The notes under the pieces are model-generated. The model was not told the DNA's origin, did no database searches, and saw only the letters and a list, made by a program, of their open reading frames with translations. From Heptranchias perlo (lineage: Eukaryota): 64,000 nt of DNA. Made by a program: the position numbers and the translations under genes. The stretch is from assembly GCF_035084215.1 (NCBI RefSeq), contig NC_090360.1, forward strand, positions 10,788,001 to 10,852,000, written 5' to 3'. Below, one piece after another: positions 14,331-63,639 of this stretch. Within the stretch, counting starts at the first letter, position 1; every line of letters starts with the position of its first letter.

Positions 14331-17286
14331 AGCACCAAGAGTTACATGTGCTGCCATATACTTAGGTAGAATATAAAAGCGTTGGATAATGGTACTTGTT
14401 GCTTTCTGTTGGCCACTTGAAGAGGCTATTGCAAAATTATGGGAATTAATTGAGTTTACTCACACTTCCTGCTGCTTCTCTGTTTATATCTGAAATCTTC
14501 CTGTTTGACAAAGGTTTGTATAATCTGTATTGCATTTCAGAAGGGATTGATCCTTCCAACAAGACAACGTTTTGAGATCATTCTGTAGCCTCTGAAGAAA
14601 TACAGACAAGAAATACCCCTCCCCAGTCCATTAAGATAATTTTAATGGCAGTAACTCGTTTAAGAATGCTTAATGCACTCGTACTATATTGCTGTGTTCG
14701 CTATTTTTACACAGCAATGTAGTAGAAGCACAATAAGCATTTGAACGTGAACTTTTGACAAACAAAATTTCTACCTAATGTCTGTTATATTAAAGTTATT
14801 AAGAAATTGCAGTGTGTATTACCAGAGCACATAACGTAGTAAAAGAAAAATCACTTGCTACGTGGCTGAGGTCATTCACTCGTGCTAGGGGGTTAGTTAT
14901 TTAGCCCTTTTAATGATTTATTTTTCTAGCCATCCTTCGCTGAGATATGTCCCCTGTTTGTACTGTCCACATAGATGCCAGAACTATGATTTATCTGCTA
15001 TGGCTTATTTATAGTGACTTTAATTTCACAGTACTAAACTTACAAAATGAATGTATTCATGTTCCAACTTGCAGCACAGCCCTTAAAGTACAACTTTTCA
15101 AACACCTGTGCACTTAATTTAAATATGGAACATATCCAACCAAGCTTCTGCTTTCTCATTACAATTAAAGCACAAAAACTCTGTGCCCTACACACCTAGT
15201 ATGATTACATAACACATAATGAAGTCCAGACGACAGCCACAAGTGAGCATAGGTTTCAGTTCAATACTTTTGCATTCAAGTTAAAGTTAGTAAAAAAGTA
15301 TGACACTTGAAGTCTGAAGCACAATCCAAAGCAAGAAAAATATTGAGGTGAAAGACCATAGGAAACCTTTACAACGGTTAAACTTTGGCACCAACATATA
15401 TGGATAAAAATTCTGTCTGTTGGGCACAAGGTTATTGAAGTCATCTGGTGAGTGGCTTCCTGCTTGAGCACCACCACTCACTGCTTCTCACTGCAAACTT
15501 ACCCAGTGCATCTTCTAGTGGGGGTGGGTGTGTGTGTGTGTTAGTGAGATGCCATCGTCTTCTGGCCCACTCACAGTGCTGGAGACTGCTCTTTCAGGCC
15601 TATAATAGCAGGAAAGGAACATATGTTGAATATGTTCCAGTATACTATGTGTGATGTATTTGTGGTTGTGTGTATACCAGGGTGAGTAAGAGAGAAGGGG
15701 GACAAGATATATAACAAGAACATAATGGTACTAGCTTGAGCTTGTAGAGACCTCTACTATCCTGTTGCCCTACCATCTTAATGCAGGGTGGCTTTTTGAA
15801 AAGGAGTCAGAGGCTTATAATGTCGGGGCCTCATCCACTTCAGGCCTGTTCTCTTTTACTGTGTGCCATCTTGTCCTGCAAGCAGAGAAATCATCTCGAG
15901 ATGTTGAAAGTTTAAGGAACAATATCGTGATAGACATGTACCCATCCTGTGTTTCAGTAAATGAACAAGCATCATGCACTGAGAATGTGTTGGAAGGATA
16001 AATCCCCAATAGTATTTCTCTTTCTTTGGCTCGTTATCTGTTTTTCTTAACACCCTTGTGAAATGCTTTGTCGATTTTCTATATAAAAGGCACTATATAA
16101 ATGTAAGTTGTTCTTGCCCATCAGAACAGCAGACTGAATATTAGACATGAAAAATCAAGTAAAAAAAAACGAATATGAAGACCAGTTTAAAAACCATCTA
16201 ACGATATGTGATACCTGCAAACAGAAAAAACCACAAAAACCACTTGATCCGAATGCACTGTTTTACATAGCAAGCAATACACAAAATCCCACATAGATCA
16301 GGGACATTACAAAACTTAACCCATGAGATAAATGACATCAGACAACCCGAAGGCCATGTCTGGCTTAACCACGATTGAAGACGGGTGCTGCTACACTGAT
16401 GATCATGCTCCTGAGTGGCATCTTCAACCCTGAACTCCAAGGGAAATACGTATTCCTGCTGCACATAGATACAGTTTCTTCACAAAACCTTATTCCCTGA
16501 GGGGTGTCCTCCTGTACTGGAGGACTGCTATCTGGTAATAGTGGACAGGTAATAGAACTGCTCAGTATCTGAAGCACACTGTGTAAATTTCCCAGTTGCT
16601 TTTTTAATTAGTCACACACTGTTTAGTCAACCTTATCGATATGTTACATTCTTAAAGGAAGTTTAATATTGCAGTTTTAATAGAAAGTAGTAATCAAAAG
16701 GTTTCCATGCTGAGCTAATAAACTGTGAGCATCCATCACATTTATATGTATGAATAAAGAATGTTATTAACCAGAAAAAGGTCCACTGAAAAATGGCCAT
16801 GAATGGGGAAGATGTATAAAGGTGTTATGCAGACTAGTTTGTGTGTCCATGTGCATATTTTGGAAATAGTCAGCAACGTCACTGAACATTTGAAGATTTT
16901 TGAGCAAGGTTAGGTCAGGCAGATGGAAAAAAGGAAATGGTTAAATGAGGCACAAAGCACCAGATTAGGACCCAAACTGACAGAGAAAACCAGCTTGGGG
17001 ACAGGCCATGAACCAGTAATGGTAAAATGAAGCGATATGGATGAAGTTGATATTGTCAAACCAAACCAGGTTCAAGTGTTAAACCCAAATTAGAGATAAT
17101 GTCTATTATCCAATTTCTAATTTTTCAAACTTGGATTTTTCTGAGTTCAGCCTGTTCAAATGAATTTGGATTTCAGAAGGTCTAAAATTGAGATCTGAAT
17201 CCAGATTTTCCGATCCAGAAAATTCACTCCATTCGGATTGCAGCTGGAACTTCTTCTGAAATATTTACTCCTATGCATTATTGTGA

Positions 17287-17326
17287 CTGGAATTAAACTA
17301 GTTTAATTAAACTAGTTTAATTCCAG
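17287..17326. repeat. Perfect 40-bp palindrome
   Basis: ctggaattaaactagtttaattaaactagtttaattccag equals its own reverse complement. Confidence 0.95.
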
Positions 17327-18635
17327 GCTCTCAAATCTAGACCCTGCCAGAAGACAATTCCAGAAAGAGGCGAATGCTTTCTCTGTGTTTAGCCTCTGCT
17401 TTGACTCACTCCACACGGCCTAGCTGAAATTAGAAACTCTGTTTGGGGAAAATTGTAGAAACAGCCTAGAGTTCTATTGCTGCTCGGAGCAGAATGTAAG
17501 CACAAAAAACAAGCAAAAATAGTGGACAAATTTTCTTTTAGGATGGAGTTTAAAAAATGTCAATGTTGGAAGAACAAATAGTATAAGACATGAAAACAGC
17601 GAGTGTGAGGAAGGCTTTTTGGGTACACTGAATACTTTTTCATTCAGTCTCACTTCCTGTGCCTCACTTTACTGCAGAACACTTATCATAGGATTCTTGC
17701 TGTGCTGTGTTTGCAGAGAAGCTCGGCGCCATAAAAACTTTTTCCACTTTGTAATTGAAAGTGACGGGAGACACTCAACATGGAGAACCCATGCTCCCAA
17801 ATTATTGATGATCAAACTAATATGGATGAAGTAGTATAATGCAGGCAAAGTGACGGGTTGAAAGAGTGCTTTATATTTGCTGTATTGTTTGCCTGGTGAT
17901 GGTTTTCACAACTAACAACCACCTTGGGCCATTTTAGATGGGAAAGGTTAACGTAATATGCTGTTGCACTTTAGTTGTTTTTAATAATGTTTTTACACTT
18001 TCTTGTCCAAGTTTTGTCCCTTGGACTAACAGCAAGGCAATTTACCTCATGAAAATTGCTTTTAAAGACATTTGCAGCCAGGGCATTGTAACCAGGGGAT
18101 TGTGAGAATTTTGGTTGGGGGTTTCTCTGCCCTGTGATCATTGATGCTTAAATGCTGGGGACTTATTTTTGGTTTGCTGAAATATTATTCAAGTTTTTTG
18201 TGTGCTACAAAAATAGTAACAACTTCTTAGAAAAGATAAATTTCTTTAAGTGTATCCTGCTTAGGTAATTGAAGGTTACATGTACAGTTTCTATGTACAT
18301 GTATATAAGGATGTCTCTCTGTGGATTCAGTGCTGACTGATTCCACTGTGAATTGTGATCATTACAATCAATGCCATATTTTCCAGTATTCATATTATTG
18401 TGTTTTACCCACTTGGTGGAAGAAGCAGAAGTATTAAAGGGACACTGCCTTCTAGAAAAATATTTGGGAAACCTCTTACTGATGTAAATCTTGCGTGACT
18501 TATGTGTGAAGCTACTTTGATGAACATAATGCATGGCTGCCTTTTTCTGTTTCCTTACCCCCCCCAAAAAAGCTTGCCAACCATGTTTTAATAAACAGAG
18601 CTTCTTTAAAGGGACATGTCATCATGGTGTGTTGC

Positions 18636-20405
18636 TTTTTTTTTGTATTCGTTCACGGGATGTGGGCGTCGCTGGCAAGGCCGGCATTTATTGCCCATCC
18701 CTAATTGCCCTCGAGAAGGTGGTGGTGAGCCGCCTTCTTGAACCGCTGCAGTCCGTGTGGTGACGGTTCTCCCACAGTGCTGTTAGGAAGGGAGTTCCAG
18801 GATTTTGACCCAGCGACAATGAAGGAACGGCGATATATTTCCAAGTCGGGATGGTGTGTGACTTGGAGGGGAACGTGCAGGTGGTGTTGTTCCCATGCGC
18901 CTGCTGCCCTTGTCCTTCTAGGTGGTAGAGGAGGTTTGGGAGGTGCTGTCGAAGAAGCCTTGGCGAGTTGCTGCAGTGCATCCTGTGGATGGTGCACACT
19001 GCAGCCACAGTGCGCCGGTGGTGAAGGGAGTGAATGTTTAGGGTGGTGGATGGGGTGCCAATCAAGCGGGCTTGGATGGTGTCGAGCTTCTTGAGTGTTG
19101 TTGGAGCTGCACTCATCCAGGCAAGTGGAGAGTATTCCATCACACTCCTGACTTGTGCCTTGTAGATGGTGGAAAGGCTTTGGGGAGTCAGGAGGTGAGT
19201 CATTCGCCGCAGAATACCCAGCCTCTGACCTGCTCTTGTAGCCACAGTATTTATATGGCTGGTCCAGTTAAGTTTCTGGTCAATGGTGACCCCCAGGATG
19301 TTGATGGTGGGGGATTCGGCGATGGTAATGCCGTTGAATGTCAAGGGGAGGTGGTTAGACCCTCTCTTGTTGGAGATGGTCATTGCCTGGCACTTATCTG
19401 GCGCGAATGTTACTTGCCACTTATGAGCCCAAGCCTGGATGTTGTCCAGGTCTTGCTGCATGCAGGCTCGGACTGCTTCATTATCTGAGGGGTTGCGAAT
19501 GGAACTGAACACTGTGCAGTCATCTGCGAACATCCCCATTTCTGACCTTATGATGGAGGGAAGGTCATTGATGAAGCAGCTGAAGATGGTTGGGCCTAGG
19601 ACACTGCCCTGAGGAACTCCTGCAGCAATGCCCTGGGGCTGAGATGATTGGCCTCCAACAACCACTACCATCTTCCTTTGTGCTAGGTATGACTCCAGCC
19701 ACTGGAGAGTTTTCCCCCTGATTCCCATTGACTTCAATTTTACTAGGGCTCCTTGGTGCCACACTCGGTCAAATGCTGCCTTGATGTCAAGGGCAGTCAC
19801 TCTCACCTCACCTCTGGAATTCAGCTCTTTTGTCCATGTTTGGACCAAGGCTGTAATGAGGTCTGGAGCCGAGTGGTCCTGGCGGAACCCAAACTGAGCA
19901 TCGGTGAGCAGGTTATTGGTGAGTAAGTGCCGCTTGATAGCACTGTCGACGACACCTTCCATCACTTTGCTGATGATTGAGAGTAGACTGATGGGGCGGT
20001 AATTGGCCGGATTGTATTTGTCCTGCTTTTTGTGGACAGGACATACCTGGGCAATTTTCCACATTGTCGGGTGGATGCCAGTGTTGTAGCTGTACTGGAA
20101 CAGCTTGGCTAGAGGCGCAGCTAGTTCTGGAGCACAAGCCTTCAGCACTGCAGCCGGGATGTTGTCGGAGTCCATAGCCTTTGCTGTATCCAGTGCACTC
20201 AGCCGTTTCTTGATATCACGTGGAGTGAATCGAATTAGCTGAAGACTGGCTTCTGTGATGGCGGGGATATCGGGAGGAGGCCGAGATGGATCATCCACTC
20301 GGCACTTCTGGCTGAAGATGGTTGCAAACGCTTCAGCCTTGTCTTTTGCACTCACGTGCTGAAGTCCGCCATCTTTGAGGATGGGGATGTTTACAGAGCC
20401 TCCTC
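18636..20405 (-). mobile_element. Young 5'-truncated CR1-group non-LTR LINE, copy 1
   Basis: Poly(A) at 18636, short hairpin 3' UTR, RT ORF. Highly similar to the copies at 36813, 39827 and 56612. Confidence 0.95.
18688..20355 (-). pseudogene. LINE ORF2 fragment with an open reverse transcriptase domain (555 aa)
   Basis: Motifs NYRPISLLS, QFGFR, ALDIKAAFDRVWH, GVPQGSVLGP, FADD, WQVTF...KC. No endonuclease domain (5' truncation). A 4-bp deletion near 18930 relative to sister copies frameshifts the C-terminus; the true tail is in ORF 18701..18997. Confidence 0.95.
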
Positions 20406-20629
20406 TTTTAGGTGATTCAACACCCAGATGGTAGCCACAGTATTTATATGGCTGGTCCAGTTAAGTTTCTGGTCACCCCAGAACTGGAGGAGGCTTGTGA
20501 GTGAGTAATGTCTTTTCCCATTACTCTTTATACATGCTCACTGCAAAAATCAGATTCCATAGGCAGACGTGCACTTCTTATGGATCGAAGCTTGATCTTA
20601 TGCATGAAATGAGACTAGTACACCAGAGT

Positions 20630-21680
20630 TATAAGAAAAGAAGCAGGAGTTGGCCATACAGCCCCTCAAGCCTGCTCTGCCATTCAATAAAATTATGACT
20701 GATCTTCTACCCCAACTCCACTTTCTTGCCCTATCCCCATATCCCTTGATTCCATTAGTGTCCAAATATCCATCAATCTCAGTCTTGAATATACTCAACG
20801 ACTGAGCATCCACAGCCCTCTGGTGTAGAGAATTCCAAAGATTCACAACCCTCTGAGTGAAGAACTTTTTCCTCATCTCTGTTCTAAATGGCCAACCCCT
20901 TTCATTGAGACTATGCCCCCTAGTTCTAGACTCTCCAGCCAGGAGAACCACCCTCTCGGCAGCTACCCTGTCAAGCCCTCCAAGAATTTTATACGTTTCA
21001 ATGCGATCGCCTCTTCTAAACTCCAGAGAATTTACGCCCATTCTACTCAATCTCTCCTCATAGGACAACCCTCTCATCCCAGGAATCAATCTAGTGAACT
21101 TTTGCTGCACCCCCACTAAAGCAAATGTATCCTTCCTTAGGAAAGGAGACCAAAACTGTACACCGTACTCCAGGTGTGGCCTCACCAGAGCCCTATGTAA
21201 TTGCAGCAAAATCTCCTTACCCTTATACTCCAACTGCTTTGCAATAAAGGCGAAGATACCATTTGCCTTCCTAATAGCTTGCTGTGCCTGCATGTTAACT
21301 TTCTGTGATTCTTGTAAAGGACACCTAAATCCCTCTGACTACATCAGAAGCAAAATACTGCGGATGCTGGAAATCTGAAATAAAAACTGAAAATGCTGGA
21401 AATAGCAGAGTTAATAACCCTGTTTCTGACCTGAAACGTTAACTCTTTCTTTCTCCACAGATGCTGCCTAACTTGCTAAGTATTTCCAGCATTTTCTGTG
21501 TTTATTCCCTCTGACTGCCAACATTTCTTAGTCTCTCATTATATTTAAAAAAATATTCTGCTTTTCTATTCTTCCTACCAAAGTGGATAATTTCACATTT
21601 CCCCACTTTATACTCCACCTGCCACCTTCTCGCCCACTCACTTAACCTATCTATATCCCTTTGCAGTCTCTTTGCATTGC
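20630..21680 (-). mobile_element. CR1 ORF2 3' part plus tail, interrupted by an insertion at 21341-21505
   Basis: ORFs 21502..21693 (LQRDIDRLSEWARRWQVEYKVGKC) and 20598..21293 (LVRPHLEYGVQFWSP, YEERL, TRGHSL, FFTQRVVNLWNSL). Confidence 0.95.
21341..21505. mobile_element. Short Penelope-like-derived element with inverted arms and an 11-bp target-site duplication
   Basis: TSD tccctctgact at 21330-21340 and 21506-21516. Inverted arms aataaaaactgaaaatgctggaaata / tatttccagcattttctgtgtttatt. Internal gacctGAAACGTTaact is half of a hammerhead motif. Same family as 32866-32993. Confidence 0.8.
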
Positions 21681-31760: not shown

Positions 31761-31980
31761 CTATCTTGGTACGTTATGCCATACCCTTGTGTAGTTATGA
31801 GAAAATGCATGCAAGATCCAATTGCAGGCTGTGACGCTTGGTGTTCAGTGCTTTCGTTGCACAGGTTGTAAGCGTAATGAATCATAATTTTAACCTGAAA
31901 TAGATGTGCAGTCAAAGATGGCTGCATCACAAGGCAGTTAAACTGCCATCAGTTTACCCTCTTTCAAAGCCACTTAAATT

Positions 31981-32056
31981 GCTGGACTATAACTTGGTGT
32001 TGTAAAATTGTTTACAATTGTCAACCCCAGTCCATCACCGGCATCTCCACATCATG
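31981..32056 (+). mobile_element. Penelope-like terminal fragment with a 9-bp target-site duplication
   Basis: Reverse complement of 62787-62856 with one mismatch in about 70 bp. Flanked by acttaaatt at 31972-31980 and 32057-32065. Confidence 0.8.
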
Positions 32057-32865
32057 ACTTAAATTTATGCAATTGCCTTCGAGTTATTTGTTAATTTTAC
32101 ATAATGCAAATATAAGATGCATTTTGTTTCAAAATCTTTTAAATTCGTAGTTACTTGACAAAACTAATGTTCAATTGCCATCTTGACATAACAAATGGAA
32201 GATTTAAATTATTTGATGTAAACAATCCAAGCTATTGTTCATGAGCTGGGTGAGAGGGCTGAGTTATTCACGATAATATATTATGTGACAGCTGAAGTGA
32301 TTGTGATTGGAGACTCTTTCCTGCAATAGTACTTCTTTTTCTTTTAAGGTTGTAGTGGGGTTCCTGACCTCTGCTCGATCTGCAATTACAGGGCTGATCT
32401 CTCTCTTATTTTGTTTTCTGTTGCTGACCTGTGGACCTCCACTAGCTGCCTCCCCACTACATTATGATCAAATTATTGGTTTGATGCTGCTTTAAAAAAA
32501 AACTTGCAGTTTCTGTTTTAATAAAAAAAAACAGCCTTGATTTGTGATGTGAGTTTTTATATTAATGAGGCAGTATTTCATGGTACTTGTTTATTTTTGC
32601 TCCCCATTTCTACATTATTTTCTCAAGTGCTTTAATTTTTCCAATTCTTCCACAATGCACATAGGTTGCCTGCTCACAGCCTCTGCCACTGCTATTCTGT
32701 CAATAAGTGAGAATGAGCTGGGATGACTCACCTTCTGATTTTCCTCCTTGTGGGAAAAGCCCCCTTTGCTCTGGAACCTCTTCCTGAGTTGAGCAGAGAT
32801 CAGTAACTTGCTGGGTGGGGATTTTCAAGCATGAGCCAGTCAGGCATAAGCACACTGATTTTACC

Positions 32866-32993
32866 AAAATACTGCTGATGCTGGAAACTTGAAATAAAAA
32901 CAGAAAATGCTGGAAACACTCAGCATCTGTGGAGAGAGAAACAGTTGCCATTTCAGGTCGATGACCTGTCATCAGAACTGGAAGAAGTTAGAG
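32866..32993 (-). mobile_element. Penelope-like-derived short element with a degenerate hammerhead motif
   Basis: Same family as 21341-21505. Minus strand 32942-32980 reads CAGTT-CTGATGA-C-AGGTC-ATC-GACCT-GAAA-TG-GC-AACTG. Confidence 0.75.
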
Positions 32994-36169: not shown

Positions 36170-36812
36170 ACATATTTTGGGTGCACAAAGCTTTGCCCCC
36201 TGGCATAATGGGATGAAAAGTCCAGACATAACTTTAAAAAAATTATATTATAAATTAATATTTTATAAAGAACAGCAAATAGCCGATGACCAGTATAAAA
36301 CAGCGATTGAATCCTGAGCTTTTTAAAAAAAATATTGGGTGGTGATAACTGTTTGCAATTATAATGAGAACAGATGGGTCACAAGTTTGACACTGGTGCT
36401 TTCTGAGAGCACAGAAAGACTTGGAGGAAACTGTCTATAGGAGTTGACAACACTATTTGGTCGAGTGTGCAGTTTCACTTCTCATATTCCCCACAGACTT
36501 TCAGACTGATGCAGAATGCAGAGGTGCAGCTGCAATGGCTCTTGTATTTGTGCTATAGGCCTGGAGATCCAGCTAAAAGCCAGAAACGGTTGCAGTGCTG
36601 CTCCAGTCATGATCTTGACAACTGACAGCCCAGCCACATCTTTCTGATGTTGTAGAGCATGGGCTGTGCCATGAAGTAGGCTGATCCGTATGGCTTTGAG
36701 GGGCACTAAGTGCAGGAGAAAGAGTTGGCTTTGTCTCCAAAAAGGCTACAATATTCCCTACTAGGTGATATGGGCATAATTCTACTTGTCGTCAGAGTCA
36801 CTGTATTAGTTC

Positions 36813-37775
36813 TTTTTTATTCGTTCATGGGATGTGGGCGTCGCTGGCGAGGCTGGCATTTATTGCCCATCCCTAATTGCCCTTGAGAAGGTGGTGGTGA
36901 GCCGCCGCCTTGAACCGCTGCAGTCCGTGTGGTGAATGTTCTCCCACAGTGCTGTTAGGAAGGGAGTTCCAGGATTTTGACCCAGCGACGATGAAGGAAC
37001 GGCGATATATTTCCAAGTCGGGATGGTGTGTGACTTGGAGGGGAACATGCAGTTGGTGTTGTTCCCATGTGCCTGCTGCCCTTGTCCTTCCAGGTGGTAG
37101 AGGTCGCGGGTTTGGGAGGTGCTGTCGAAGAAGCCTTGGCGAGTTGCTGCAGTGCATCCTGTGGATGGTACACACTGCAGCCACAGTGTGAAGGGAATGA
37201 ATGTTTAGGGTGGTGGATGGGGTGCCAATCAAGTGGGCTGCTTTGTTCTGGATGATGTCGAGCTTCTTGAGTGTTGTTGGAGTTGCACTCATCCAGGTAA
37301 GTGGAGAGTATTCCATCACACTCCTGACTTTTGCCTTGTATATGGTGGAAAGGCTTGGTGGAGTCAGGAGGTGAGTCATTCGCCAGAGAATACCCAGCCT
37401 CTGACCTGCTCTTGTAGCCACAGTATTTATGTGGCTGGTCCAGTTAAGTTTCTGGTCAATGGTGACCCCCAGGATGTTGATGGTGGGGGATTTGGTGATG
37501 GTAATGCCGTTGAATATCAAGGGTAGGTGGTTAGACTCTCTCTCATTGGAGATGGTCATTGCCTGGCACTTTTCTGGCACGAATGTTACTTACCACTTAT
37601 CAGCCCAAGCCTGGATGTTGTCCAGGTCTTGCTGAATGTGGGTACGGACTGCTTCATTATTTGAGGGTTTGCGAATGGAACTGAAAACTGTGCAATCATC
37701 AGCAAACATCCCCATTTCTGACCTTATGATGGAGGGAAGGTCATTGATGAAGCAGCTGAAGATGGTGGGGCCCAG
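36813..37775 (-). mobile_element. CR1-group LINE copy 2 (5'-truncated)
   Basis: Aligns to 18640-19600. ORF 36873..37580 retains the native C-terminus ...GLQRFKAAAHHHLLKGN. Confidence 0.95.
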
Positions 37776-39826: not shown

Positions 39827-40797
39827 TTTTTTTCTTATTCGTTCATTGGATGTGGGCGTCGCTGGCGAACATAAGAACATAAGAAATAGGAGCAGGAGTA
39901 GGCCAATCGGCCCCTCGAGCCTGCTCCGCCATTCAATAAGATCATGGCTGATCTGATCCTAACCTCAAATCTAAATTCATGTCCAATTTCCTGCCCGCTC
40001 CCCGTAACCCCTAATTCCCTTTACTTCTAGGAAACTGTCTATTTCTGTTTTAAATTTATTTAATGATGTAGCTTCCACAGCTTCCTGGGGCAGCAAATTC
40101 CACAGACCTACTACCCTCTGAGTGAAGAAGTTTCTCCTCATCTCAGTTTTGAAAGAGCAGCCCCTTATTCTAAGATTATGCCCCCTAGAGGCTGGCATTT
40201 ATTGCCCATCCCTAATTGCACTTGAGAAGGTGGTGGTGAGCCACCTTCTTGAACCGCTGCAGTCCGTGTGGTGAAGGTTCTCCCACAGTGCTGTTAGGAA
40301 GGGAGTTCCAGGATTTTGACCCAGCGATGATGAAGGAACGGCGATATATTTCCAAGTCGGGATGGTGTGTGACTTGGAGGGGAACGTGCAGGTGGTGTTG
40401 TTCCCATGTACCTGCTGCTCTTGTCCTTCCAGGTGGTAGAGGTCACGGGTTTGGGAGGTGCTGTTGAAGAAGCCTTGGCAAGTTGCTGCAGTGCATCCTG
40501 TGGATGGTACCACTGCAGCCACAGTGCGCCGGTGGTGAAGGGAGTGAATGTTTAGGGTGGTGGATGGGGTGCCAATCAAGCGGGCAGCTTTGTCCTGGAT
40601 GATGTCGAGCTTCTTGAGTGTTGTTGGAGCTGCACTCATCCAGGCAAGTGGAGAGTATTCAATCACACTCCTGACTTGTGCCTTGTAGATGGTGGAAAGG
40701 CTTTGTGGAGTCAGGAGGTGAGTCACTCGCCGCAGAATACCCAGCCTCTGACCTGCTCTTGTAGCAGGTCAGAGGCTGGGTATTCTGCGGCGAGTGA
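39827..40797 (-). mobile_element. CR1-group LINE copy 3 (5'-truncated, interrupted by CR1, terminal fold-back)
   Basis: Aligns to 18640-19242. Split at 39868/40189. Ends in a 35-bp inverted duplication. Confidence 0.95.
39869..40188 (-). mobile_element. Young CR1 3' end nested in LINE copy 3
   Basis: ORF 39977..40198: RGHNLRIRG..FKTEMRRNFFTQRVVGLWNLLP. (TTCTTATG)n tail at 39869. Confidence 0.95.
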
Positions 40798-56611: not shown

Positions 56612-57907
56612 TTTTTTTAAAATTCATTCATGGGATGTGGGTGTCACTGGCAAGGCCGGCATTTATTGCCCATCCATAATTGCCCTTGAGAAGGTGGTGA
56701 TCAGCCGCCGCCTTGAACGCCACAGTTCGTGGTGAAGGTTCTCCCACAGTGCTGTTAGGTAGGGAGCTCCAGGATTTTGACCCAGCAACGATGAATGGTG
56801 ATACATTTCCAAGTCGGGATGGTGTGTGACTTGGAGGGGAACATGCAGGTGGTGGTGTTCCCATGCACTTGCTGCCCTTGTCCTTCTAGATGGTAGAGGT
56901 CGCGGGTTTGGGAGGTGCTGTTGAAGAAGCCTTGGTGAGTTGCTGCAGTGCATCTTGTAAATGGTACACACTGCAACCACAGTGCGCCGGTGGTGGATGG
57001 GGTGCCAATCAAGCGGACTGCTTTGTCCTGGATGGTGTCGAGCTTCTTGAGTGTTGTTGGACCTGCACTCATCTGGGCAAGTGGAGAGTATTCCATCACA
57101 CTCCTGACTTGTGCCTTGTAGATGGTGGAAAGGCTTTAGGGAATCAGGAAGTGAACTCGCCGCAGAATACCCAGCCTCTGACCTGCTCTCGTAGCCACAG
57201 TATTTATGTGGCTGGTCCAGTTAAGTTTCTGGTCAATGGTGTCCCCCAGGATATTGATGGTGGGGGATTCGGTGATGGTAATGCCGTTGAATGTCAAGGG
57301 GAGGTGGTTAGACTCTCTTGTTGGAGATGGTCATTGCCTGGCACTTGTGTGGCAGGAATGTTACTTGCCACTTATGAGCCCAAGTCTGAAAGTTGTCGAG
57401 GTCTTGCTGTATGCGGGCACGGACTGCTTCATTATCTGAGGGGTTGCGAATGTAATTGAACACTGTGCAATCATCAGCGAACATCCCCATTTCTGACCTT
57501 ATGATGGAGGGAAATACATTGATGAAGCAGCTGAAGATGGTTGGTCTAGGACACTGCAGTGATGTCCTGGAGCTGAGATGATTGGCCTCCAACAACCACT
57601 ACCATATTCCTTTGTGCTAGGTATGACTCCAGCCATTGGAGAGTTTTCCCTCTGATTCCCATTGACTTCAATTTTACGAGGGCTCCTTGATGCCACACTC
57701 GGTTAAATGCTGCCTTGATGTCAAGGGCAGTCACTCTCACCTCACCTCTAGAATTCAGCTCTTTTCTCCATGTTTGGAACCAAGGGTGTAATGAGGTCTG
57801 GAGCCAGGTGGTCCTGGCGGAACCCAAACTGAGCATCGGTGAGTGAGTGTTTGATAGCACTGTTGATGACACCTTCTGTCACTTTGATGATTGAGAGTAG
57901 ACTGATG
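56612..57907 (-). mobile_element. CR1-group LINE copy 4 (older, frameshifted)
   Basis: Aligns to 18640-19992. RT is broken into several ORFs (ALDIKAAFNRVWH; GMFADDC). Confidence 0.95.
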
Positions 57908-62060: not shown

Positions 62061-62786
62061 AGCGGTCCAAGGGTATGAGTAAACTTGGCACTTAACCAGG
62101 AAATTTTACTTTGGTAGAAGCCCAGTACGAAGTTGAATTGCGCAGACTTTGCATCCACTGCCACTGACCCTGGTGAATTTTTAGGTCTCAAGTTAATTGA
62201 ACTTTGGGATCCCTATCTGCACCAGGAAGGCTGCTTTGGTGAGGGGCCCAATCACTGCTACAGGCCTTGAGACACCTGCAGCAGCAGAGGAGGCTGAAGG
62301 GGAGAGCCAATTTTCATTCAAAAAATCTTAAATCTCAGTGCTGTGGACTGCAAGTGATCATCCCACAATTGATTGCACTCCTTAACAGGGCCATTTAACA
62401 TTTAAATGATCTTCCACACATGAGGAACACGCTGGCATTCCTTACATCCTGTGTTATTATGACAATAATGGAAAATATGACCAATTATGTCACTTCACAA
62501 TTGCCACACTCTTTGAACACACTTGCCCATATTCGAATGGAAATATTCAATGGCCGTTGTTACTTCTGGTGGAAAATCCTGGTGGTGACATTGACTGGTG
62601 GGGGTATGGTGCCCTGGGCAGCTTTCTGCCTCTGTCTACCCCAGATCTATCCAAATTCAGTCAGAATAACAACGAAAAATCAAGGCTAAGATGTTCAGTC
62701 ACTGCAATCAACAAAGCAAGTAGACTCCTGTATCATACTGCTAACTCAGTCGACTATAAACCAGAGGATGTCATGTTGAAACTATA

Positions 62787-62990
62787 ATGTGGAGATGCCG
62801 GTGATGGACTGGGGTTGACAATTGTAAACAATTTTACAACACCAAATTATAGTCCAACAAATTTATTTTAAATTTCACAAGCTTTCGGAGGCTTCCTCCT
62901 TCCTCAGGTGAATGGTGTGGAAATGAAATTTTCGAATCCTTCGCATTTGTAAATCACAGAACAATGCCTGGTGATTACTGCCCGTTGCAA
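62787..62990 (-). mobile_element. Penelope-like element terminal repeat fragment
   Basis: Shares its terminus with 31981-32056 and carries a minimal hammerhead motif, as described for Penelope pseudo-LTRs. Family call is by recall and inference. Confidence 0.75.
62874..62912 (-). ncRNA. Minimal type I hammerhead ribozyme motif
   Basis: Minus strand reads UUCAC-CUGAGGA-A-GGAGG-AAG-CCUCC-GAAA-GC-UU-GUGAA: perfect 5-bp stem I, CUGANGA box, perfect 5-bp stem II, GAAA box, palindromic AGCU stem III, UH site. Confidence 0.8.
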
Positions 62991-63639
62991 TGGAACATGC
63001 AAAGGCCATAGAGGGGAAAGCCTTGAGACTAATCCCTAATGTCAGAGGATATGAAATATGAGGGGAGACTGGAGAAGTTTAGGCTATTCATCCTTTGAAA
63101 GGAAATGACTTGGAGGGGATATTATACAACTCTGTATAATATATTAAACAGTGCACATACGGTATCCTATCAAAGAGTTCAAATTGGTGAAAGGCAAACT
63201 TAAGGCCAATGTCAGGAAGTTTTTCTTCATGTAAAAAGTGATTAACAATTGGAATGGGCTTCCAGGGAGCGTAGTGGAGGCAAAATCCTTGGAGTAATTT
63301 AAGAGATTGCTGATGTTGTGATGGGTGAATGGCCGCCTTCACCCTTACCTAGCTTATGACGTGGCAGAGGAATGTTGCCTCTGTGCCACAAGCAGAAATA
63401 TACTTGTTGAATCCCTTGAGGACTTGAAATATGTTGATGCTTCAAATCAGTGGACTGATAAGATTCTAGTGTCGTCCCCGTGATACCATCCTAGGCAATT
63501 TTGCAGTTTTAATTGTAGCACATCTGTGTCGACCCTTCTAATTTTCAATTGCATTGTTAAACAGACACTTGCCCAACTCCTTTTAAAAAGAATTAATCGA
63601 CACAACATGAGTTGCTTTTGCTGGGAATCCAACATACCC

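What the first reader, a model, noticed from the sequence alone, without database searches (positions are those of the whole stretch)
62874..62912. Intact-looking minimal hammerhead ribozyme in a Penelope-like terminus
Seen: on the minus strand all hammerhead elements occur in order within 39 nt. These are stem I UUCAC/GUGAA, CUGAGGA plus one extra A, stem II GGAGG/CCUCC with an AAG loop, GAAA, a minimal stem III within the palindrome AAGCUU, and predicted cleavage after the second U (between 62879 and 62878). Known: Penelope-like elements carry minimal type I hammerheads whose palindromic stem III allows cleavage as dimers. Inference: this young family (a sister terminus at 31981 differs by one base in about 70) processes its RNA by self-cleavage and has spread ribozyme motifs through this genome. 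No ORF-based annotation would show this.
Basis: partly seen in the sequence, partly recalled or inferred. Interest (0 to 1): 0.75.

Follow-up and report, generated by a model that had tools for sequence, protein, structure and literature searches.

The report
Penelope-type minimal hammerhead, shark-like genome
The 39-base self-cutting-RNA motif is really there, but it is one of many thousands of copies at the tail end of what is likely a Penelope-type jumping gene, a kind described in 2014, and this lone 202-base stub likely does nothing.

Summary
Observation confirmed. All hammerhead elements lie on the minus strand at 62912-62874 as described; a matching descriptor hit 4 of 1500 shuffled windows. 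The motif sits in a 202-nt repeat (62787-62988) inserted into a CR1-like LINE remnant. The repeat is very high-copy, and 62876-62912 shows no variant at 4% or more in 4 of 4 runs. The Penelope link is indirect: a metagenome contig with a homologous ribozyme and tail (71% over 114 nt) carries a Neptune/Nematis-type GIY-YIG gene upstream, and the 4 of 19 pattern hits that form stem I are the 4 with Penelope proteins. This family's own ORF was not reached. The motif fits the consensus of Cervera and De la Pena 2014. The sister copy differs at 2 of 72 bases and lacks the ribozyme. Self-cleavage was not tested; this copy spans the cut site, so it was likely copied from uncut RNA, and no partner lies in the window. 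The scan noted this kind before on other DNA, shark-like genomes included. New member of a known kind.

The parts
62787..62988 (-). 5'-truncated terminal fragment (pLTR plus tail) of a very high-copy, likely Penelope-like family; no ORF
   Evidence: summed contig depth in run X1 rises from about 20-280 on the flanks to 0.6-6 million inside; loose ends at 62787, 62978 and 62988; homologous to L014
62874..62912 (-). minimal type I hammerhead motif, all core positions intact
62908..62912 (-). stem I 5' arm (UUCAC)
   Evidence: pairs with 62874-62878
62900..62907 (-). core CUGAGGA plus the unpaired A between positions 9 and 10.1
   Evidence: the published consensus is CUGANGAH
62887..62899 (-). 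stem II, 5 bp with AAG loop, G10.1-C11.1
   Evidence: two pairs change on both sides among 4 homologues
62879..62886 (-). GAAA, loop-less palindromic stem III (A15.1-G-C-U16.1) and U17; predicted cut after 62879
   Evidence: cut site inferred from hammerhead numbering, not tested
62874..62878 (-). stem I 3' arm (GUGAA); the two outer positions vary in the family
   Evidence: 62875 A to G on the RNA in 53% of X1 depth keeps a U-G pair, 62874 A to U in 6% breaks the pair
62805..62856 (-). predicted tail hairpin closed by UGGACU/AGUCCA, followed by an AC-rich end; candidate signal for the start of reverse transcription
   Evidence: kept in 4 of 4 aligned tails, 2 of 11 pairs with a change on both sides; single-sequence z from -1.5 to -2.9; role inferred
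62641..62786 (+). left part of the CR1-like LINE remnant that the element interrupts
   Evidence: aligns to another CR1-like copy of the window up to its position 225; translation
62989..63336 (+). right part of the same CR1-like remnant; about 57 nt of LINE are missing at the junction, no target duplication seen
   Evidence: alignment resumes at position 282 of that copy; tblastn E 4e-6
31976..32055 (+). sister copy: tail only, no ribozyme
   Evidence: 76 of 80 identical; upstream bases unrelated

Best explanation
This is an intact-looking minimal hammerhead motif inside a 202-base repeat stub that is likely the 5'-truncated end of a Neptune-type Penelope-like retrotransposon, inserted into an old LINE fragment. 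Shown: the motif, the bounds and high copy number of the repeat, its lack of an ORF, and homologous motif-plus-tail modules behind Penelope endonuclease genes. Inferred mechanism in the active element: the element is transcribed as a tandem precursor. One motif cannot close stem III alone. Two motifs pair through the AGCU palindrome and swap stem I arms, probably with help from the element's own RT-endonuclease protein, and cut slowly after U17, trimming the element RNA out of its precursor. Reverse transcription starts separately, in the AC-rich tail about 92 nt downstream of the cut site, on RNA whose last ribozyme is still uncut. Early stops leave short tail copies with the ribozyme (this one) or without it (31976-32055). 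This copy has no ORF and no partner in the window, so it is likely inert.
For: Elements and chance test. Bounds, depth and 12930 laid contigs in X1; none of the 30 variable places listed over 4 runs falls in 62876-62912 (hypergeometric 8e-5 for 37 of 152 interior bases, sites not independent). L014: ribozyme and tail 71% over 114 nt, E 4e-8, 275 nt behind a GIY-YIG ORF (Pfam 23.4 bits, cut-off 22.6) with a CX5CxxC linker, 59% identical to a shark RT plus endonuclease protein whose cluster has 54 members. Of 19 pattern hits, the 4 with stem I of 3 bp or more (L008, L011, L012, L014; 3 distinct termini) are the 4 with Penelope protein matches; the other 15 have 0-1 bp and none. The stem I 3' arm was not in the search pattern. 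P0035, a bamboo-shark gene model, joins an antisense translation of this terminus (18 of 33 aa, E 5.7e-4) to a Penelope RT piece. 3 of 10 pairs change on both sides among 4 homologues, more than in any slid control. The published consensus fits. Cut site to element end is 92 nt; in the anole element the RT starts lie 85-92 nt past the cut (+111 to +118 minus +26).
Against: The ORF of this exact family was not reached: no genome is held, and two protein searches with the family's antisense frame gave 0 candidates and 4 unrelated repeat proteins. The 76 nt upstream of the ribozyme match nothing in L014. Covariation is weak: 4 sequences, 34 of 500 shuffles as high. The ends 62787-62821 and 62953-62988 also show no listed variant, so the ribozyme is not the only invariant block. 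Nearest-neighbour energy of the double-hammerhead form (-20.7 kcal/mol) is worse than two monomers (-23.4) or the best dimer (-29.7), and the AGCU pairs have probability 0.0; the model ignores tertiary energy. Cleavage was not tested.
Confidence: 0.85

Rival explanations
1. The repeat is a short non-autonomous derivative (SINE-like or retrozyme-like, about 125-200 nt) built from a Penelope pLTR and moved in trans, rather than a truncated piece of the full element.
For: X1 depth falls from 4.2 to 1.3 million just 5' of stem I, with mixed loose ends at 62911 and 62914 (68 and 34 contigs, agreement 0.47 and 0.41); single joints such as 62978 to 62787 and 62912 to 62874 fit head-to-tail units (the joint kind is not stated in that table). 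Retrozymes related to pLTRs are reported, one chondrichthyan included (10.64898/2026.07.22.740005).
Against: Loose ends at 62978 and 62988 continue with agreement above 0.9 in 3 of 4 runs, so the family extends upstream. Tandem joints have single-locus depth (12-81). No tandem array here. Heavy 5' truncation is normal for PLEs (PMC8557442).
Confidence: 0.08
2. The motif is kept by the element as a protein-binding or structural signal, or is a passenger, and its cutting plays no part in transposition.
For: Catalytic mutants did not affect insertion in vitro and no RNA-seq reads ended at the site for the anole element. Naiads spread without hammerheads. Low in vitro activity of min-HHRs even as dimers. 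This copy spans the cut site.
Against: Every catalytic position, G10.1-C11.1, U16.1 and a non-G at 17 are kept across the family and in 3 distinct distant termini. The anole motif did cut with protein and showed C3G/G8C rescue.
Confidence: 0.04
3. This single copy has been taken over by the host and cuts or destabilises a host transcript.
For: Core fully intact.
Against: Intactness is the family norm. No partner in 64 kb, though only 1.1 kb upstream on the minus strand is in view. It lies inside a LINE remnant. No host exon was recognised among 149 of 179 reading frames scanned.
Confidence: 0.02
4. Chance resemblance to a hammerhead.
For: No Rfam hammerhead match; folding z only -1.22.
Against: 1-4 of 1500 shuffles; homologues with kept stems next to Penelope genes.
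Confidence: 0.01

Closest known systems
Minimal hammerheads (min-HHR) in the pLTRs of metazoan Penelope-like elements (Cervera and De la Pena 2014, PMC4209133)
   Same: Type I topology, CUGANGA plus one unpaired base, G10.1-C11.1, 5-bp stem II, short stem I, loop-less palindromic 15.2-16.2, mostly solitary truncated copies. Their Fig. S3 has G7 (Latimeria 1) and the G-C-U-U ending (Philodina, Chrysemys).
   Different: Sequence of stems and flanks. No cartilaginous fish among the Fig. S3 rows read. This family's own ORF not seen.
Neptune-type endonuclease-positive PLEs of sharks (P0001 cluster, Heptranchias perlo; P0035, Chiloscyllium punctatum; names)
   Same: The homologous terminus L014 follows an endonuclease 59% identical to P0001, with the CX2-5CxxC linker; P0035 holds a translation of the terminus.
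   Different: No direct DNA link from this stub to such an ORF. Neptune versus Nematis was not separated by an RT tree.
Poseidon element of Anolis carolinensis, PAc (Frangieh et al. 2024, PMC11167929)
   Same: Ribozyme near the element end; AC-rich end 85-92 nt past the cut site; genomic copies span the cut site.
   Different: Other PLE clade (no linker zinc finger); its ORF starts inside stem II, whereas here a conserved CATG lies at the very end of the tail.
Non-LTR retrozymes (10.64898/2026.07.22.740005)
   Same: Type I hammerhead in a short non-coding unit related to pLTRs.
   Different: Defined there by two or more tandem units with complete motifs; this copy is single.
Rfam hammerhead families (Hammerhead_1 and relatives)
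   Same: Catalytic core.
   Different: No match at E up to 10; the likely reason, the missing stem III loop and short stems, is my inference.

Membership tests
PLE min-HHR (Cervera 2014) | core CUGANGA ... GAAA ... UH | tested here: met
PLE min-HHR (Cervera 2014) | one unpaired base between positions 9 and 10.1; G10.1-C11.1 | tested here: met
   A62900; G62899-C62887; feature list
PLE min-HHR (Cervera 2014) | palindromic 15.2-16.2, no loop III | tested here: met
   A-G-C-U at 62883-62880
PLE min-HHR (Cervera 2014) | multi-copy family with compensatory changes | tested here: met
   12930 contigs laid in X1; U-A to U-G at 62875; a 13-contig loose end shows G-C for A-U in stem II but loses the fifth pair; 3 double changes among 4 homologues, not significant alone
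PLE min-HHR (Cervera 2014) | lies in the pLTR of an element with RT and GIY-YIG ORF | tested here: inconclusive
   met for homologues L014, L012/L008 and L011 and suggested by P0035; not shown for this family's own DNA
PLE min-HHR (Cervera 2014) | cleavage as dimer, not as monomer | not testable with these tools
   the energy model does not favour the dimer form but cannot decide
Neptune/Nematis-type EN+ PLE (Craig 2021) | C-terminal GIY-YIG with two cysteines between the motifs, and CX2-5CxxC linker | tested here: met
   for the homologue L014 and for P0001 and P0015 only; definitions
Neptune/Nematis-type EN+ PLE (Craig 2021) | placement by RT phylogeny | not tested
   no tree was built
Non-LTR retrozyme (Li 2026) | two or more tandem units, each with a complete hammerhead | tested here: not met
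   one motif of this family in the window; definition
Rfam hammerhead families | covariance-model score at gathering threshold | tested here: not met
   no hammerhead family among 13 and 8 matches at E up to 10

The most novel reading that the evidence does not exclude
The ribozyme and a conserved tail hairpin form one RNA module shared by Neptune-type elements from sharks to unnamed marine and sediment eukaryotes: the hairpin docks the element's protein, fixes the start of reverse transcription about 92 nt past the cut site and switches the ribozyme on. With some 10^4 to 10^5 intact copies, some in tandem, the family would then cut host pre-mRNAs in trans whenever element protein is expressed.
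Probability: 0.08. Interest if true: 0.55.

Novelty: new member of a known kind. Interest (0 to 1): 0.15.

Why it matters
Little by itself: minimal hammerheads in Penelope termini, thousands per vertebrate genome, have been known since 2014. Its value is as test material. What these ribozymes do in living cells is still open (PMC8557442, PMC11167929), and a young family this abundant would give strong signal in end-mapping RNA data and in a per-position conservation analysis. The tail hairpin is a testable candidate for the reverse-transcription start signal in the Neptune group.

Tried and rejected
Rfam scans: no hammerhead match. Own genome not held, so no copy count and no family consensus. 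Viral contigs: 0 hits for the ribozyme pattern, the tail pattern and P0001. Genome contigs: 2 and 8 hits, all judged chance bacterial matches (no stem I, no Penelope protein, match limited to the pattern). 13 of 17 metagenome hits were set aside the same way; three of them (L004, L007, L019) have a plausible stem II but no in-register stem I and no Penelope match, and stay unexplained. Protein searches with the antisense frame 62853-62987 failed to link this family to an ORF (the 4 hits are tandem-repeat proteins). A motif search of 140 Penelope proteins for the peptide expected after the terminal ATG found none. tblastn of these 140 against the window gave one hit, P0035, so no Penelope ORF remnant was seen in the window. 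Pfam on 149 of 179 frames found only LINE-type RT above or near cut-off. No RNA holder listed. Run X5 is RNA only by guess and contigs show no ends, so nothing was drawn on expression or cleavage; its higher relative depth over the last 50 nt shows no step at 62879. Lunse et al. 2017 is not held; seen only as cited in PMC6765202. Supplements of the 2026 preprint were not seen and may list this family.

Full report
Observation. The minus strand from 62912 to 62874 reads UUCAC CUGAGGA A GGAGG AAG CCUCC GAAA GC U U GUGAA. My descriptor finds this one site in the window; 4 of 1500 dinucleotide shuffles gave any hit and 1 of 1500 a hit with both stems of 5 bp or more. A loose core-only pattern is not informative (17 matches against a mean of 8.6; 7 of 100 shuffles as high). 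The predicted fold holds stems I and II but its energy is ordinary (z -1.22). Rfam reports no hammerhead at E up to 10. The sister copy at 31976-32055 is 76 of 80 identical, 2 of 72 different from 31981 on, and begins about 15 nt downstream of the cut site, so it has no ribozyme.

The repeat and its site. No genome is held. Fifteen runs hold part of the stretch; 4 of the 15 were laid. In the DNA run X1, 12930 contigs align (3418 at 99% or more, 5020 at 95-99%, 3790 at 90-95%, 702 below). Summed depth is about 20-280 on the flanks and 0.6-6 million between 62780 and 62983, with loose ends at 62787, 62978 and 62988, so the element here is 62787-62988. The tool warns that this depth is no copy number. 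Allowing up to 31-fold overcounting by short overlapping contigs, my rough estimate is 10^4 to 10^5 copies. Runs of two other organisms (X6, X11) hold it too. The flanks align to another CR1-like copy in the window, up to position 225 on the left and from 282 on the right, so the element interrupts a LINE remnant, with about 57 nt missing and no target duplication seen. 'CR1-like' is my label, from recalled C-terminal RT motifs. 'Shark-like' is inferred from P0035 and from recall of shark repeats; the organism is not known to me.

Conservation. Thirty places vary at 4% or more in at least one of the 4 runs: 14 in 62822-62875 and 16 in 62913-62952, none in 62876-62912. A hypergeometric test on the 152 interior bases gives 8e-5, but the sites are not independent, the span was chosen by eye, and both end blocks also show no listed variant. 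The commonest change at the edge of the motif (62875, 53% of X1 depth) turns U-A into U-G; 62874 breaks the outer pair in 6%. One loose end (13 contigs) shows a subfamily with G-C for A-U in stem II, but it loses the fifth pair.

Link to Penelope-like elements. A pattern fixing the 5' arm, the core and GAAAGCT gave 0 viral, 2 genome and 17 metagenome loci. The 3' arm of stem I was not in the pattern. Four of the 19 loci form 3-5 bp of stem I (L008, L011, L012, L014; L008 and L012 share a terminus), and exactly these four match Penelope RT or endonuclease by tblastn (E 2e-67 to 3e-18); the other 15 form 0-1 bp and match none. L014 is homologous over ribozyme and tail (71% over 114 nt, E 4e-8). 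It lies 275 nt behind the stop of a GIY-YIG ORF with a CX5CxxC linker, and has an inverted RT piece upstream, an arrangement typical of PLEs. That endonuclease is 59% identical to a shark RT-endonuclease protein with 54 cluster members. Of 140 such proteins, one (P0035, Chiloscyllium punctatum) matches the window, at 62812-62910: a gene model whose front part translates the terminus antisense and whose rest is 82% identical to the Penelope RT; it may be spliced, so this is weak support. Among 4 aligned motifs, 3 of 10 pairs change on both sides; 34 of 500 shuffles do as well, every slid control worse. The ORF of this exact family was not reached.

Mechanism. Shown: motif, repeat, no ORF, no second intact motif in the window. 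Inferred from PMC4209133: a loop-less stem III cannot close in one molecule, two motifs pair through the palindrome, and activity is low even in dimers. My energy calculation does not favour that dimer (-20.7 against -23.4 kcal/mol for two monomers and -29.7 for the best dimer), but the model has no tertiary terms. PMC11167929 found for the anole element that cutting needs protein, is not needed for insertion in vitro and leaves no RNA-seq ends, and that reverse transcription starts in an AC-rich stem-loop 85-92 nt past the cut site. Here the element ends 92 nt past the cut site, in AC-rich sequence behind a predicted hairpin kept in 4 of 4 tails, with 2 of 11 pairs changed on both sides. This copy is continuous across the cut site, so its template was likely uncut. 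I read the stub as a likely inert product of early-terminated reverse transcription, and the ribozyme as likely serving slow, assisted trimming of tandem precursors of the full element.

Comparison and novelty. The motif fits the published consensus, and about 4000 and 9000 min-HHRs were counted in coelacanth and frog. Read: PMC4209133 parts 1-2 of 4 and supplement parts 1-2 of 3; PMC11167929 parts 1-2 of 4; passages of PMC6765202 and PMC8557442; part 1 of 5, passages and section 14 of 10.64898/2026.07.22.740005 (supplements not seen). Lunse 2017 was seen only as cited. Five paper searches turned up no description of this family or of min-HHRs in shark PLEs, but the library lacks most subscription papers and Repbase could not be checked; the preprint reports retrozymes in one chondrichthyan. 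Earlier scan notes describe the same kind in other genomes, two of them shark-like; none matched by sequence or in this genome. They are unchecked and count as leads only. Verdict: real, a new member of a known kind, interest 0.15.

Noticed in passing
window 32941-32980 (-): Decayed hammerhead of a second, sequence-unrelated repeat family: 5-bp stems I and II and the core are intact, but the stem III palindrome and U16.1 are lost. Penelope origin is recalled, not tested.
   Followed up: partly
window 21428-21506 (+): Copy of that second family (76% alike over 79 columns to 32893-32959), truncated inside stem II; it keeps GAAA and an ACGU palindrome.
   Followed up: partly
window 62787 and 32050-32058: The family end continues with CATG in the sister copy, in one joint and in a loose end of X5; it may be the start codon of the next unit's ORF. 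No protein among 140 confirmed it.
   Followed up: partly
window 62911-62914: Depth drops about threefold just 5' of stem I, with mixed loose ends: many copies seem to begin, or subfamilies to diverge, at the 5' edge of the ribozyme rather than at its cut site.
   Followed up: no
window 62978 to 62787 and 62912 to 62874 (joints in run X1): Single contigs that run back over the motif, possibly tandem copies elsewhere in the genome that could form double hammerheads (table 5c; direction not stated).
   Followed up: no
window 18691-20460 (-), with 36810-37775, 40189-40797, 56612-57907: Young LINE family with a 590-codon open RT frame (Pfam RVT_1 E 2.5e-39); copies 86-94% alike, two with short 5' inversions (19200-19282/20431-20475, 40723-40797).
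   Followed up: partly
L004:4001-4032, L007:2607-2638, L019:381-414: Hammerhead-like cores with a plausible stem II but no in-register stem I and no Penelope protein match nearby; in L007 and L019 an extra C before the core would restore pairing.
   Followed up: no
L008 and L014: Penelope RT pieces inverted relative to the endonuclease or terminus, the usual 5' inversion of these elements.
   Followed up: partly
window 17279-17336: Perfect 40-bp AT-rich palindrome at 17287-17326.
   Followed up: no
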